From: Escherichia coli | GTDB lineage: Bacteria; Pseudomonadota; Gammaproteobacteria; Enterobacterales; Enterobacteriaceae | Length of the DNA: 64,000 nucleotides | Assembly: GCF_016026235.1 (NCBI RefSeq) | Contig: NZ_CP065613.1 | Direction: 5' to 3' (one strand) | In this document: positions 17,420 to 22,203 of the stretch, in pieces | How positions within the stretch are numbered: the first letter of the stretch is position 1 | How the letters are laid out: every line of letters begins with the position of its first letter | The notes under the pieces: model-generated | The model's database searches: none | What the model was told of the DNA's origin: nothing | What the model saw: only the letters and a program-made list of their open reading frames with translations | Translations under genes and position numbers: made by a program

Positions 17420-18692
17420 ACCGACTCCTGATTCAAATGTATGATGGTATTCATTGAACAGAACAATGGATCCCCCACCGTTGCTGACCGCAAAACATTT
17501 ACGCGATTAATACTGCGCGTAATATAATTAAAAATCCAGCATTCTCAATCCATTACGAAATAAGATGGCATTACGGAATAGCCAGACTTTCTCGTGTTAA
17601 CGTCCGACAAAATGCGTCATTGACAGCGGTTTCTGTGGATTGACACATTTCATTCAGATAATGAATTAATGCTACTGCCGGAACAACCAGCAAACGGGCA
17701 TTGTGTTCTGAAATCCAGGCTATTGATTCAACGTCAGCGACAGATCTGCGCTGTAAAAGAACTTGTAAAACAACGTAATAGAATTATCCGGAATGGTGGC
17801 GACTATGCACTAGAACACCACAATTTCGCTCTCTCGGTAAGGCACTGTCACAGCATTCAACAGAATGTGACTTGCCAGATTTATTAGCGCCACCAGATGT
17901 TTAACCGGGTAACCACGACCCAGTCGGGGATATATTCCATCTTCTCGCTGACATCATCAAGAATAAAAAGGTTTATCACACTCAGAGCAACGTTCTTCAG
18001 CAGGCGGGATAATTCTTCAACATTTAAAAGATGTGTTATTAAAGGCATACAAACTGGACGTATTGTATTTTCTTTTGGTGGTTGACCTAAGGTAGCAGTT
18101 TATCCTGATGCGCTGAGATTTCTGTAATATCTACGTCAACATTCTCCTCGAATAGAAAATGCAGCCCCGGCAAGTGATTCACATTTTTTAACAAAACGTT
18201 GTTAGCGTGCCATTTTCAGAAGCTCTCCAAGAAAGCGAATTCTTTTCTCAAATTCTGCATTCTCAGACACAGCTTTCTACTCCATGGCAATGGCCCAAAT
18301 ACGAAGTTGCTCAGGATCATTAGTGGTGCTGAGAAGTTAAATAACCATGCGGAGTACCACTCGTCATCACGTATTTATATATCATGAAGCTATTGTTGTG
18401 TTTTGTACATCAGTAGATGTATTCTGATATACTCCTTTTGCTAGACATAACCTTTCACCTGCTTGCAAAGCTTCTGTGTTCTGACATTGCCAAATTGTTG
18501 CAATTCTGTATCCAGCCTTCTTTCAGTCATAGCTTCGGGCCGCGATAAGACTCACTGATCTGACCCTGATTCCTCTTGCAGACTTTATAGACCAATTAAA
18601 ATGCAGTTTCTGCAGGTCAACGTCTGACCATCATTGTCATCACTCTGGCCATTAGAGTAACCTTCTGCATTCATCCTTTTGTAAAAAGTTTA

Positions 18693-19335
18693 TAGACTGG
18701 CCCCCTGAATCTCCAGACAACCAATATCACTTAAATAAGTGATAGTCCTGATACAAGTTTTTAGAGTAGTCATTAGTGAACAGATAATTGTTAACTTAGA
18801 ACCAGTAAAATGCAAACGACGCACCACGCTGGGAAAATCGCTGCTATTCAGCAGAGTTTTGTACCGAGAATTGTGGCCAGCCACTTATTGCTCTCGCGTA
18901 AGCAGGTATCCCTATCGTTTACCAGTCCAGCACATCTTGTGGTCAGGCAGAAGAAGAGCAAACTGTTACTGGACTCACTGCATGCATGGTGGAGAAAAAT
19001 GCCACGCTATCCAAAAATCCAGACTGGGAGAATGGTTCAGCTGTGTACTGAATCAGTGGGGCGCACTCTGTTATTACAGTGTTGACGGTCAGGCGGAGGC
19101 AGACATAATGCCGCGGAAAAAGCCCTTTGTGCCATCTGTCTCGGAAATAAAAACTTTATGTTCTTCGGCGGCGAGCGCAGTGCACTGTTGTATGGGCTTA
19201 TCGGCACTTGCCTTCTGAACGACATTGATCCGGAAGCGTATCTGCGCCATATCCTGAGCGTACTGCCGGAATAACCTTCCAACCGTATTGATGAACTCCT
19301 GCCATGGAACGTAGCACTCACCAATAAATAAGCGT
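18693..19335 (+). mobile_element. Composite IS relic: IS2-type left end with decayed orfA, followed by the C-terminal fragment of an IS66-family TnpC
   Basis: 18693-18747 is identical to the first ~55 bp of the IS2 left end at 27064, then diverges. At 19150-19330 the translation KNFMFFGGERSALLYGLIGTCLLNDIDPEAYLRHILSVLPE ... DELLPWNVALTNK matches the conserved IS66 TnpC C-terminus. No intact ORF. Confidence 0.5.
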
Positions 19336-19360
19336 CAATACGGCACTCCGTTAACGCTGA

Positions 19361-20871
19361 TATGACTTTCCGTGTCAAACCGGAATCTCTAATTTTGACG
19401 ATTTTCTTTTTAGGTTTAATTCCCTGAGGGCGACGTAGCAGTAAATCCGACGGTGAATCACGCTGATATTCGCGGGTTGGATACCGCATTACAGAGGTCC
19501 GTCATATGAGCCTGCCACTTTCTTACGTCGCGAATCAGCTTTGTTCCGCCGTCGCCAAGCGCTAACGTGGGTTACTCTTGTACCGGGCTACGTCGCCTTC
19601 AGGGAACTGGTTATTCTCATTTTTTATTTGTGACATTGTGGTTGTTGTGCGACAGACATTGCTATTCGGCCCATATCCCAGATAAAACCCGCCAGCTCAC
19701 GTGCAACAGCAACAATTGTAATATTGACATTCTTTCCTTTGGCCTGAAGTTTTCGATACCTCTTACAAAGCCTGAGTTGAGCATCCCATGCTCTGTCAAT
19801 GACGGGGCGGGGTAAATTTTCCTGCCTTTTTGTATTGCCGGACTGATGCGTGCCGGATGACGGTAACTCCACGCTGCCTCGACCAATAGCTTTCTGGCAT
19901 AGCTGTTTCCGGCTTTGGTAATGCTGCCCTGATGTCTGCTTCCACCCGATGAATATTCTGATGGCGTGATACCAAACCATGACATCAGTTGTCGTGGATG
20001 TTCAAAACGGGTCAGATCACCCAGTTCAGAAATTAATCCAACCGCAGTAATAAACTGAATCCCTCGCATGGCTTGCAGCGCCTCTACTACCGGATACAGC
20101 CTCCATTCGGTAACGGCCTCCTTCAGGGCGGATTCCAGCCGTTCACATTGTGCCTGCCGGTCTTCTATTGTACGACGGTGTTCGTCAAAAGCTAATTGTC
20201 GCCAGGGACTTTCGAATGAGTATTTGCTGAGCCAGCGTCGGTGTGCAGGGCCCCAATCTGCTCGCCCGACATAATGGACCCCATGAACCAGAAGAAACGA
20301 TTTCAGACGTTGCCTTGCATGCCGTAAATCATCGCGGGCAGATGCCCATGCCCGGGCCAAATCCCGGAATGCCTCATCTTCAATGCCGGGTACGTAGACA
20401 GCAGAAAGATCTCCTGCACGCAGTGAACGCACAAGTCTGATGGCATCACGGCGATCGGTTTTAACCCGCTCCCCCGGTTTTTTCGGGATAAGTGAGGGGG
20501 CGCAGACCATGCAGTCAAAACCGGATTTCACCAGCCGACGATAAAGTCCATAACCACAGGGCCCCGCTTCATAAACGATACTGACCTGCGATGACTTTGA
20601 CCTGAGACGTTTACAAAGATTCTGAATATCAGTAGGTGATGTGCCAATTTTACCCATCAGTTCAACAGGTTCTGAATTGATAGCATAAGCGACAGTAATC
20701 GATTCTTTGTGAACATCTAACCCGACGTACAATGTGTTATTGTTGTTCATGCTGGCCTCCGTGGTGGAAATACCGGGGTGTAGCAACAGCTCACCCATGC
20801 GGCTCTGACAACGATGTTAACCCGCGTTAAATATCCCACGTTGGCCAGCATCTGTCTCACGGAAAGTCATA
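19361..20871 (-). mobile_element. IS110/IS1111-family insertion sequence (about 1.5 kb) bounded by 14-bp inverted repeats
   Basis: Perfect inverted repeat TATGACTTTCCGTG at 19361-19374 and its reverse complement CACGGAAAGTCATA at 20858-20871 enclose a single transposase gene plus about 290 bp of non-coding sequence on its 3' side. Confidence 0.6.
19662..20750 (-). CDS. IS110-family (DEDD-type) transposase/recombinase
   Basis: Product MNNNNTLYVGLDVHKESI... has the N-terminal DEDD/RuvC-like domain and the C-terminal transposase_20-type domain (…FGITPSEYSSGGSRHQGSITKAGNSYARKLLVEAAW…). Confidence 0.8.
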   Translation of the reverse strand: MNNNNTLYVGLDVHKESITVAYAINSEPVELMGKIGTSPTDIQNLCKRLRSKSSQVSIVYEAGPCGYGLYRRLVKSGFDCMVCAPSLIPKKPGERVKTDRRDAIRLVRSLRAGDLSAVYVPGIEDEAFRDLARAWASARDDLRHARQRLKSFLLVHGVHYVGRADWGPAHRRWLSKYSFESPWRQLAFDEHRRTIEDRQAQCERLESALKEAVTEWRLYPVVEALQAMRGIQFITAVGLISELGDLTRFEHPRQLMSWFGITPSEYSSGGSRHQGSITKAGNSYARKLLVEAAWSYRHPARISPAIQKGRKIYPAPSLTEHGMLNSGFVRGIENFRPKERMSILQLLLLHVSWRVLSGIWAE

Positions 20872-20988
20872 CTGCCTTACCTTTTCTCAGGCTATTTTTG
20901 CTTTTTTTTGCTTTTCCCCGCCACTTTATGGTGATTATCACATCAATATACATCGATAGATATTAACGTAACTGAAGTGAGGTGAAGC

Positions 20989-22203
20989 ATGAAATTTGAA
21001 CGCCATCATGAAATATTGAAACGACTCAGTAAATTCGGTTCTGTAAAAGTATCCGATCTGTCCAATAGCCTCAATGTAACGAAAGAAACTATTCGTTCAG
21101 ATCTTAATGAACTTGCCAGGCTTGGCTATCTGACTCGATGTCATGGCGGTGCTTTTATCGTCCTAGACTCGCTTGATACTATTGCGAAAAATGAAATCGC
21201 TTATGCGCTTGAAAATTATGATACAGCCCAGGGAATAAAAAAAGGCCACTCAACTATGAAAAGTCAAGTATGCGTTATTGGTTCGTTTAATGTTGATATC
21301 ATCAGTTATTTGCCGAGGCTTCCCACTATCGGAGAATCGCTTCTGGCAAGTAATTTTATATTTTCACCGGGGGGAAAAGGCTGTAACCAGGCGCTGGCAG
21401 CAAGCTTTGCCGATACTGATGTTTATTTCATAACAAAAGTAGGTACAGATCACTTTAGTGATTATGCGATCAACTTTATGAATTCGTCTAAGATTTATAA
21501 AAGTATAATTTATCAAACGAAAGAAACGCAAACCGGAACTGCCACGATCCTTGTTAATGAAGGTACTGGCGATAATGTTATTGCGATCTATCCCGGTGCC
21601 AACATGACAATGTCGTCCGATGAAATAACTATTCAGAAAGAAGCGATTATTAATTCTGATGTCATACTTCTGCAGCTCGAAACAAATTATACCGCTCTGC
21701 AACAAGCGATCACATTGGCGCAAAAAAACAGTATCCCGGTCATTATTAACCCGGCACCCTATAATGATATCGTCAACGAACTTATTCAGGATGTTGATTA
21801 TATCACCCCCAATGAAACAGAAGCTGGTTTACTGTCCGGCATAGACGTACACGATCTTGAATCAGCTAAACGAGCTGCAGAAGCTATCCACAATAAAGGG
21901 GTAAAAAACACGGTTATCACGCTCGGTAGCAAGGGCTCGCTCGCATTTGATGGCAAAAAATTCATTCATTCGCCAGCGTTTCCAGCGGTCGTTAAAAATA
22001 CGGCAGGAGCCGGGGATGCGTTTAACGGCTCTCTGGCATCAGGACTTGCGAAAGGAAAATCACTGGAATCAGCACTGTGTTATGCCAGCGCCTTTGCATC
22101 CCTAGCGGTGGAGACAAGCAATGCTTCCGACATGCCTGAACATGAATCTGTGATACATCGAATTCAGAGTATACATTATCAGCAAACTATTTTTACGCAT
22201 TAA
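20989..22203 (+). CDS. Fusion protein: N-terminal DeoR-type HTH domain plus PfkB/ribokinase-family carbohydrate kinase
   Basis: Single 404-codon ORF. Residues 1-60 look like a DeoR HTH (VKVSDLSNSLNVTKETIRSDLNELARLGYLTR). The remainder carries both PfkB signatures (GGKGCNQA and AGAGDAFNG). Confidence 0.7.
   Translation: MKFERHHEILKRLSKFGSVKVSDLSNSLNVTKETIRSDLNELARLGYLTRCHGGAFIVLDSLDTIAKNEIAYALENYDTAQGIKKGHSTMKSQVCVIGSFNVDIISYLPRLPTIGESLLASNFIFSPGGKGCNQALAASFADTDVYFITKVGTDHFSDYAINFMNSSKIYKSIIYQTKETQTGTATILVNEGTGDNVIAIYPGANMTMSSDEITIQKEAIINSDVILLQLETNYTALQQAITLAQKNSIPVIINPAPYNDIVNELIQDVDYITPNETEAGLLSGIDVHDLESAKRAAEAIHNKGVKNTVITLGSKGSLAFDGKKFIHSPAFPAVVKNTAGAGDAFNGSLASGLAKGKSLESALCYASAFASLAVETSNASDMPEHESVIHRIQSIHYQQTIFTH

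What the first reader, a model, noticed from the sequence alone, without database searches (positions are those of the whole stretch)
19361..20871. IS110/IS1111-type element with 14-bp inverted repeats and a 290-bp non-coding flank (candidate guide/bridge RNA locus)
A DEDD-type transposase (19662-20750) is bounded by the perfect inverted repeat TATGACTTTCCGTG / CACGGAAAGTCATA. About 290 bp at 19375-19661 on the 3' side, and about 100 bp on the 5' side, are non-coding. IS110-family recombinases are known to be guided by a structured non-coding RNA encoded in the element's non-coding end, so this flank is a candidate for such an RNA. The element sits immediately next to the decayed end of an IS66-type relic, consistent with the family's habit of targeting specific sequences such as IS ends.
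Basis: partly seen in the sequence, partly recalled or inferred. Interest (0 to 1): 0.6.

Follow-up and report, generated by a model that had tools for sequence, protein, structure and literature searches.

The report
ISSso6 insertion sequence with guide RNA
This is a copy of the already catalogued insertion sequence ISSso6, whose non-coding tail encodes a folded guide ("bridge"/"seek") RNA that matches the end of the IS66 element it landed in; it is a textbook case, and its transposase gene is broken here by a one-base deletion.

Summary
Window 19359-20875 (minus strand) is ISSso6, an IS110-family element of the IS1111 group, 99.9% identical to copies in 40 complete E. coli genomes. Durrant et al. 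2024 already list it with a bridge RNA predicted in its right end.

Empty sites show the true ends lie 2 and 4 bp outside the 14-bp inverted repeat. A single CT core is present at both junctions. The insertion lies inside the terminal inverted repeat of an IS66 relic, leaving its last 3 bp (TAC, 20878-20880) on the far side.

The 3' flank encodes a 193-nt structured RNA (19418-19610, minus strand). Across 56 relatives, 97.6% of cells pair and 27 of 45 pairs show compensatory changes. An internal loop carries two guides, GUUAGCGCUUG and GUAAG, which together read GTAAGCGYTAAC, the IS66 end. In relatives these loops change in step with the flanking DNA (0 of 10,000 permutations). AUAUCAG matches the element's own end.

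The intact gene ends at 19624, not 19662. This copy has a 1-bp deletion in a T-run (19826-19830), so it is probably non-autonomous. RNA expression and activity were not testable.

The parts
19359..20875 (-). ISSso6 element body: 1517 bp here, 1518 bp in intact copies, not counting the CT core
   Evidence: Filled and empty sites at this very locus (L006, L007) and at hokC-nhaA (L002 against L005). 99.9% identical to copies annotated ISSso6.
19357..19358 (.). CT core copy at the junction with the right end (RE)
   Evidence: The empty site has one CT and the filled site has CT at both junctions.
20876..20877 (.). CT core copy at the junction with the left end (LE)
19361..19374 (.). Subterminal inverted repeat, RE arm (2 nt from the end)
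   Evidence: LE and RE arms co-vary in relatives.
20858..20871 (.). Subterminal inverted repeat, LE arm (4 nt from the end)
19624..20750 (-). DEDD transposase gene, frameshifted here by a 1-bp deletion in the T-run 19826-19830 (A-run on the coding strand). The catalytic D12/E61/D99/D102 and S268 lie upstream of the shift; the conserved C-terminal ~70 aa are lost.
19418..19610 (-). 193-nt structured bridge/seek RNA core, starting 13 nt after the transposase stop codon
   Evidence: MFE z-score -4.87. Consensus structure of 56 relatives with 27 compensatory pairs. G-U pairs fix the strand.
19556..19566 (-). Target guide on the 5' strand of the internal loop: GUUAGCGCUUG. It is complementary to AAGCGYTAAC on the transposase-sense strand (LTG-like in IS621 terms).
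19519..19529 (-). Target guide on the 3' strand of the same loop: GACGUAAGAAA. Its GUAAG (19522-19526) pairs with window + strand CTTAC, which is the core plus TAC (RTG-like).
19462..19469 (-). Donor guide AUAUCAG, identical to the RE end plus core, followed by C, a handshake-like base that matches the first target base beyond the core
   Evidence: IS621 analogy from PMC11208158.
19373..19378 (-). TTGACA, an outward-facing -35 box in the RE, conserved in relatives. It is inferred to be half of a promoter formed at the circle junction.
   Evidence: sequence. The function is inferred from ISEc11 in PMC11187229.
20869..20874 (-). CAGTAT in the LE, 17 nt from the TTGACA once the ends are joined. 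Inferred -10 box of the junction promoter.
   Evidence: Inferred.
18935..19358 (+). IS66-family relic (3' fragment of tnpC plus most of its right terminal inverted repeat). This is the target of the insertion.
20878..20880 (+). TAC, the last 3 bp of the IS66 terminal inverted repeat, separated from the rest by the insertion

Best explanation
Window 19359-20875 is a copy of ISSso6, an IS110-family insertion sequence of the IS1111 group.

[quoted passage not shown] One internal loop of that RNA reads the target on both strands. GUUAGCGCUUG pairs with AAGCGYTAAC, and GUAAG pairs with CTTAC. The two overlap at the CT/AG core, so together they specify GTAAGCGYTAAC, the outermost bases of IS66-family terminal inverted repeats.

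A second region, AUAUCAG, reads the element's own right end plus core. The next base matches the target rather than the donor, like the handshake guide of IS621.

By analogy with ISEc11 and IS621, the element should excise as a circle, creating a TTGACA-17 nt-CAGTAT promoter across the joined ends. It should then recombine at the CT core with a matching target, without a target duplication.

Shown here: the ends, the core, the target, the RNA structure, and guide-target complementarity with co-variation. Inferred: RNA expression, RNA binding to the transposase, the circle and its junction promoter.

This copy has an intact RNA gene but a frameshifted transposase. It is probably non-autonomous and could move only if an intact copy supplies the protein.
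For: Identity:
- 99.9% identical to elements annotated 'IS110-like element ISSso6 family transposase'.
- NF033542 hit.
- Durrant et al. list ISSso6 as IS1111 group with a bridge RNA in the right end.
- Weak but specific similarity to the IS621 transposase structure, covering the SG motif.

Ends, core and target:
- Two independent filled/empty site pairs.
- Ten distinct E. coli insertion sites. Nine share GTAAGCG, and six of those are IS66-family ends.
- 20 records carry the same IS66::ISSso6 junction.

RNA:
- Non-coding region conserved down to 48-57% protein identity.
- 45-pair consensus with 27 compensatory pairs. 97.6% of cells pair against 31-41% in slid controls, and 0 of 500 shuffles reach the observed values.

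Guides:
- Loop strand V1 against the right flank: 187 of 266 positions pair, null 116 +/- 6.8, 0 of 10,000.
- Loop strand V2 against the left flank: 60 of 88 identical, null 29.6 +/- 4.1, 0 of 10,000.
- Handshake-like base equals the first target base in 41 of 48 cases and the first LE base in 0 of 31.

This copy:
- The RNA region is identical to that of intact copies. The only difference from L001 is the 1-bp deletion.
Against: - No expression data. No sigma-70-like promoter was found just upstream of the RNA, so it must be co-transcribed with the transposase gene or use an unrecognised promoter.
- No Rfam family matches.
- The guide for the left-end side of the donor is unresolved. Two conserved candidates, GGCAG and UACUGC, show no co-variation.
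- One E. coli site (L004, L091, L092) has GTAAG but a non-matching right half.
- The single-sequence MFE fold pairs the guide regions differently from the family consensus.
- The frameshift sits in a homopolymer run and could be a sequencing error.
- The permutation tests do not correct for relatedness among elements.
Confidence: 0.9

Rival explanations
1. The conserved structured region downstream of the transposase gene is a cis-acting element, such as a transposase-binding DNA site, an mRNA stabiliser or a terminator. On this view target choice is made by the protein, not by a guide RNA.
For: No promoter was predicted for a separate RNA. The long outer stem (inverted repeat I1) could act as an mRNA 3' stabiliser. 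The subterminal repeats co-vary, so some end recognition may be by protein.
Against: The two strands of one internal loop change in step with DNA outside the element, on the left and right flanks respectively. A cis stabiliser or terminator would not do this. Frequent G-U pairs indicate selection at the RNA level on the transposase strand. Related IS1111 elements need this RNA experimentally (PMC11187229).
Confidence: 0.05
2. The 14-bp repeat is coincidental, or the element's real ends lie elsewhere. For example, the IS66 fragment and the DEDD gene might form one composite unit.
For: The repeat is not at the exact termini. IS66 sequence abuts many copies.
Against: The same 1518-bp unit with the same ends sits at sites with no IS66 sequence: hokC-nhaA, a primase gene and a SopA pseudogene. 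Empty sites match exactly after the unit and one CT are removed. The repeat arms co-vary in relatives.
Confidence: 0.01
3. The copy reached this chromosomal IS66 relic by homologous recombination or gene conversion with a plasmid-borne IS66::ISSso6 unit, not by RNA-guided insertion at this spot.
For: Eight of the ten differences between the window and empty-site strains in the IS66 relic cluster in 19315-19350, next to the insertion. The 121-bp junction is 100% identical to junctions on large plasmids.
Against: On the other side only 3 bp (TAC) of IS66 remain before unique chromosomal DNA, which is identical to the empty site. There is no homology there to resolve a conversion that imports the whole element. 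The junctions are exactly those expected for core-mediated insertion. A later short conversion between two existing IS66::ISSso6 junctions would explain the patch equally well.
Confidence: 0.04

Closest known systems
ISSso6 (ISfinder entry; IS110 family, IS1111 group)
   Same: It is this element. Identity to copies annotated ISSso6 is 99.9%. The protein is identical, apart from the frameshift, to the ISSso6 transposase printed in the supplements of PMC11187229 and PMC11208160. Durrant et al. already predicted a bridge RNA in its right end.
   Different: This copy carries a 1-bp deletion that truncates the transposase. I found no paper describing the specific guides or the IS66-end target worked out here. 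That rests on limited searches, the hits were not read, and ISfinder could not be consulted.
ISEc11, ISKpn4 and ISPa11 (IS1111 family, seekRNA shown experimentally; Siddiquee et al. 2024, PMC11187229)
   Same: Subterminal inverted repeats. A long non-coding region downstream of the transposase gene. An RNA from that region with two short segments matching opposite strands of the target that overlap in the target. An outward -35 box in the right end for a circle-junction promoter.
   Different: Protein identity is only about 20-25% (identity matrix). The ISSso6 transposase is longer, at 375 aa, than the 330-350 aa quoted for core IS1111 transposases. The target is different. Nothing is experimentally shown for ISSso6.
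IS621 bridge RNA system (IS110 group; Durrant et al. 2024; Hiraizumi et al. 2024)
   Same: CT core. A target-binding internal loop with one guide per strand, one per side of the core. A donor guide that includes the core. A handshake-like base next to the donor guide that matches the target base just 5' of the core. DEDD plus serine catalytic residues.
   Different: The RNA is in the right end, downstream of the gene, not in the left end. Its orientation relative to the target is reversed. The repeats are long (14 bp), not 2-3 bp. Part of the putative donor recognition sits in a multiloop rather than a simple internal loop. Protein similarity is marginal (E = 2e-5 over about 90 aa).
IS4321 / IS5075 (IS1111 family; Partridge and Hall 2003, cited)
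   Same: They insert at a fixed position and orientation inside the terminal inverted repeat of another mobile element, splitting off its outermost bases.
   Different: Their target is the 38-bp repeat of Tn21-family transposons, not the end of IS66-family elements.

Membership tests
IS110 family (DEDD transposase insertion sequences) | Transposase with an N-terminal DEDD (RuvC-like) domain and a C-terminal Transposase_20 domain with a conserved SG motif | tested here: met
   NF033542 at 246.5 bits against a cutoff of 140. PF01548 and PF02371 are precomputed on homologues of 73-95% identity. D12, E61, D99, D102, S268 and G269 are invariant in A1. The SG region aligns to IS621 chain 8wt6_A.
IS110 family | Sequence-specific insertion without a conventional target-site duplication; a short core is shared by donor and target | tested here: met
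   There is one CT in the empty sites and CT at both junctions in the filled sites. Nine of ten sites share GTAAGCG.
IS1111 group | Subterminal inverted repeats of 7-17 bp with short terminal extensions | tested here: met
   A 14-bp perfect repeat lies 2 and 4 nt inside the ends defined by the empty sites. The arms co-vary in relatives.
IS1111 group | [quoted passage not shown] | tested here: met
   265 bp downstream (19359-19623) against 125 bp upstream (20751-20875).
IS1111 group | Transposase clusters with IS1111-type transposases (330-350 aa) | tested here: inconclusive
   Durrant's table assigns it to IS1111. However, at 375 aa it is longer than the range quoted by Siddiquee et al.. No phylogeny was built here.
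Bridge RNA / seekRNA-guided recombinases | A conserved structured non-coding RNA is encoded in the non-coding end | tested here: met
   45-pair consensus, 27 compensatory pairs, 97.6% of cells paired against 31-41% in slid controls. No Rfam model matches.
Bridge RNA / seekRNA-guided recombinases | Loop nucleotides are complementary to both strands of the target around the core and are reprogrammed between relatives | tested here: met
   ISSso6 guides against its own sites. Family-wide permutation tests gave 0 of 10,000 for each side.
Bridge RNA / seekRNA-guided recombinases | Loop nucleotides are complementary to both donor ends | tested here: inconclusive
   The right-end side is clear: AUAUCAG equals the RE end plus core and is invariant. 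The left-end side has two conserved candidates, GGCAG and UACUGC, with no co-variation to discriminate between them.
Bridge RNA / seekRNA-guided recombinases | [quoted passage not shown] | not testable with these tools
   Only sequence hints are available: TTGACA-17 nt-CAGTAT across the joined ends, and no promoter hit upstream of the RNA.

The most novel reading that the evidence does not exclude
ISSso6 may be a dedicated parasite of IS66-family elements. Its RNA is programmed for the outermost 12 bp of their terminal repeats, and insertion severs the last 5 bp (core plus TAC), which should disable that IS66 end. Frameshifted copies that keep a perfect RNA gene and ends, like this one, may still be moved in trans: one frameshift allele is found at two different loci (L089 and L094). 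If so, the RNA-plus-ends module would persist as a non-autonomous element. The handshake-guide rule described for IS621 would also extend to the IS1111 group.
Probability: 0.3. Interest if true: 0.35.

Novelty: already known. Interest (0 to 1): 0.2.

Why it matters
It matters little for discovery. The element is in ISfinder, NCBI's annotation names it, and the 2024 bridge-RNA paper already predicted its RNA in the right end.

The practical value is as a clean worked example.
- The exact ends, the CT core, a 12-nt target and a co-variation-supported RNA structure for the ISSso6 family are now laid out.
- This could be used to annotate such elements correctly. The ends lie outside the repeats, the gene here is a pseudogene, and the flank is an RNA gene.
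- It also identifies a natural guide/target pair, ISSso6 against IS66 ends.
- About 38 naturally reprogrammed variants are available for anyone studying IS1111-type bridge RNAs.

Tried and rejected
- Rfam: searching 18500-21500 at E <= 10 returned only four chance-level hits to eukaryotic families, none in the non-coding flank.
- Promoter and terminator scan: no sigma-70-like promoter upstream of the RNA and no terminator after it. Hit counts were at shuffle level.
- Single-sequence folding: it gave a strong z-score (-4.8), but its interior pairing differs from the family consensus. I used the consensus (against 40).
- The 5' flank as an RNA locus: fold z-score only -2.2 with no further signal, so I did not pursue it.
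- Guide for the left-end half of the donor: GGCAG and UACUGC are both conserved, but the left end is nearly invariant, so co-variation cannot decide. Left unresolved.
- Second or orphan RNA copy in the window: none found.
- Literature on ISSso6 or on IS66 ends as an IS1111 target: six papers hold 'ISSso6'. The five listed are genome surveys or IS-mapping studies by title and abstract, and were not read. Nothing relevant appeared by title or abstract for IS66 plus IS1111.
- Small protein in the flank (ORFs 19037-19489 on the minus strand and 19567-19815 on the plus strand): rejected. These ORFs run across the element boundary or into the transposase gene, and conservation follows base-pairing, not codons.

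Full report
**Observation.** The perfect 14-bp inverted repeat is at 19361-19374 and 20858-20871. Between the arms, on the minus strand, lies an ORF (19662-20750) that matches NCBIfam NF033542, 'IS110 family RNA-guided transposase', at 246.5 bits against a cutoff of 140. The interval 19361-20873 is 99.9% identical to elements annotated 'IS110-like element ISSso6 family transposase'. In all, 134 records of complete E. coli genomes hold a match, and 49 records in 40 genomes hold a full-length copy.

**The gene is broken in this copy.** Intact copies (L001, L002) encode 375 aa, corresponding to window 19624-20750. The window copy is base-for-base identical to L001 except for one missing T in the run at 19826-19830. 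The deletion shifts the frame after ...AIQK and replaces the conserved C-terminal ~70 aa. The true 3' non-coding region is therefore 19375-19623. Because the deletion is in a homopolymer, a sequencing error cannot be excluded.

**True ends, core and target.** Two independent filled/empty comparisons define the ends.
- At this very locus (yaiO - IS66 relic - PfkB-type kinase), strains L006 and L007 lack the element and read ...TTAACGCT|TACCTTTTCTCAGG. The window reads ...TTAACGCT|GATATGAC...GTCATACTGC|CT|TACCTTTTCTCAGG.
- At hokC-nhaA, L005 (empty) against L002 (filled) gives the same result.

The body is therefore 19359-20875. The repeats are subterminal, with 2-nt and 4-nt extensions. A CT core is single in the target and present at both junctions, and there is no other duplication.

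The insertion lies inside the right terminal inverted repeat of an IS66-family relic (18935-19358). Its last 3 bp (TAC) are left at 20878-20880.

In transposase orientation the target reads GTA|AG|CGTTAACGG. Ten distinct E. coli sites were read:
- six are IS66-family ends (GTAAGCGTYAACGG);
- three are unrelated sites reading GTAAGCGCT (hokC-nhaA intergenic, a primase gene, a SopA pseudogene);
- one, shared by three strains, has GTAAG but a non-matching right half.

Twenty records carry the IS66::ISSso6 junction.

**The RNA.** The region 19418-19610 (minus strand, 193 nt) starts 13 nt after the stop codon. It folds with z = -4.87.

A scan of one genome per species found 80 loci encoding relatives at 48-81% protein identity, mostly Burkholderiaceae plus several distant lineages. 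The non-coding region downstream of the gene is conserved at the nucleotide level (nhmmer E down to 4e-44).

An alignment of 56 distinct sequences (A2) gives a consensus of 45 pairs in 8 helices. Twenty-seven pairs have compensatory changes. In total 97.6% of cells pair, against 31-41% when partners are slid by 1-3 columns, and 0 of 500 shuffles reach any observed measure. Abundant G-U pairs fix the strand as that of the transposase.

The architecture is as follows:
- a long outer stem (P1/P2, which is inverted repeat I1) closes a multiloop;
- one branch (P3-P4) carries an internal loop;
- a second branch (P5-P6) carries another internal loop.

**Target guides.**
- The 5' strand of the first loop is GUUAGCGCUUG (19556-19566). 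It is complementary to AAGCGYTAAC on the transposase-sense strand. That gives 10 bp, with one G·T wobble at IS66 sites and full Watson-Crick pairing at the GTAAGCGCT sites.
- The 3' strand is GACGUAAGAAA (19519-19529). It contains GUAAG, which pairs with + strand CTTAC (core plus TAC).
- The two matches overlap at the core and together specify GTAAGCGYTAAC. This matches the seekRNA description of two overlapping matches on opposite strands (PMC11187229).

Across relatives these two loop strands are the most variable parts of the RNA and change in step with the DNA outside each element.
- With one representative per distinct guide, the 5' strand pairs with 187 of 266 right-flank positions (null 116 +/- 6.8, 0 of 10,000).
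- The 3' strand is identical to 60 of 88 left-flank positions (null 29.6 +/- 4.1, 0 of 10,000).
- There are 38 distinct 5'-strand guides, so the family is naturally reprogrammed.

These permutation tests do not correct for relatedness among elements.

**Donor side.** AUAUCAG (19463-19469) is identical to the right end plus core and is almost invariant. The base that follows it (C, 19462) equals the first target base beyond the core in 41 of 48 distinct cases. It equals the first base of the left end in 0 of 31 cases.

With the core read as CT, this is the geometry of the handshake guide in the donor-binding loop of IS621. There, that guide pairs with the target bases just 5' of the core after strand exchange (PMC11208158).

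The guide for the left-end half of the donor could not be assigned. GGCAG and UACUGC are both conserved candidates. UACUGC lies in the multiloop, which fits Durrant's remark about IS1111 bridge RNAs. The left end is too invariant for co-variation to decide.

The two repeat arms co-vary with each other (163 of 208 positions against 118 +/- 5). They are therefore functional, perhaps as protein-recognised sites.

**Expression (inferred only).** No sigma-70-like promoter lies just upstream of the RNA, so co-transcription with the transposase gene and processing is the simplest assumption.

The right end carries an outward TTGACA (19373-19378), conserved in relatives. Joining the ends would place it 17 nt from CAGTAT in the left end (20869-20874). 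This resembles the circle-junction promoter shown for ISEc11.

**Comparison with what is known.** The element is ISSso6 itself.
- Durrant et al. 2024 (Supplementary Table 5) list ISSso6 as IS1111 group with the bridge RNA predicted in the right end.
- Siddiquee et al. 2024 include its transposase in their data set.
- All testable defining features of the IS110 family and the IS1111 group are met.
- The one oddity is a transposase of 375 aa, longer than the 330-350 aa quoted for core IS1111 members.
- Similarity to the solved IS621 transposase is marginal but covers the catalytic SG region.
- Targeting the terminal repeat of another mobile element parallels IS4321/IS5075 on Tn21-family ends.
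- I found no paper stating the IS66-end target or the guide assignment for ISSso6. That rests on limited searches, and ISfinder could not be consulted.

**Verdict.** The finding is a correct recognition of a known element of a known kind. This copy has an intact RNA gene and ends but a frameshifted transposase.

Noticed in passing
window 19315-19350: Eight of the ten differences between the window and the empty-site strains (L006, L007) across 18700-19358 cluster in these 36 bp of the IS66 relic, next to the insertion. The 218 bp on the other side, up to 21095, show none. The window's version is 100% identical to IS66::ISSso6 junctions on large (245-297 kb) E. coli plasmids. This looks like a short gene-conversion patch.
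   Followed up: partly
L089:1201-2713 and L094:20001-21513: Two ISSso6 copies at different chromosomal loci (a SopA pseudogene near ubiC, and near tmaR/yeeW), in different strains, share the same 1-bp deletion in a G-run (window equivalent about 19804). This suggests that defective copies are moved in trans, or that slippage recurs.
   Followed up: partly
L003:1490-1502: One copy in an IS66 end has CC instead of CT at the right-end junction but CT at the left-end junction. This is a core mismatch between the two junctions. Several Burkholderiaceae relatives likewise show AA at one junction and AG at the other.
   Followed up: no
L004, L091, L092 (between a CaiF/GrlA-family regulator gene and a porin gene): A 1523-bp ISSso6 variant (98.4-98.6% identity, with a 5-bp TGACG duplication in the transposase gene, frameshifted) sits at GTAAG|TGAATGTGC. 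The right half of this site does not match the guide, so it is either an off-target event or a later rearrangement.
   Followed up: no
window 18700-18935: Upstream of the IS66 fragment, the first ~170 bp match IS3/IS2-family transposase fragments (about 82-83% identity). Positions 18749-18908 match DNA annotated as a 'GTPase family protein' gene elsewhere. This looks like a patchwork of IS debris next to yaiO.
   Followed up: no
window 20989-22203: The gene just beyond the insertion encodes a 404-aa protein annotated as a PfkB-family carbohydrate kinase. Its N-terminal ~55 residues look like a DeoR-type helix-turn-helix (read by eye from the translation). The insertion lies about 110 bp upstream of its start codon and could affect its expression.
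   Followed up: no
L013, L014, L015, L017, L018, L031, L033, L040, L047, L051 and others: Many relatives in Burkholderiaceae draft genomes sit on contigs of about 1.5 kb that consist of the element alone. This is the signature of high-copy repeats collapsed in assembly.
   Followed up: no
alignment A2 columns 118-123 (window 19503-19508): A 6-nt stretch of the multiloop (CAUAUG in ISSso6) is variable among relatives. It does not obviously track the flanks, the ends or another RNA segment, and its role is unexplained.
   Followed up: no
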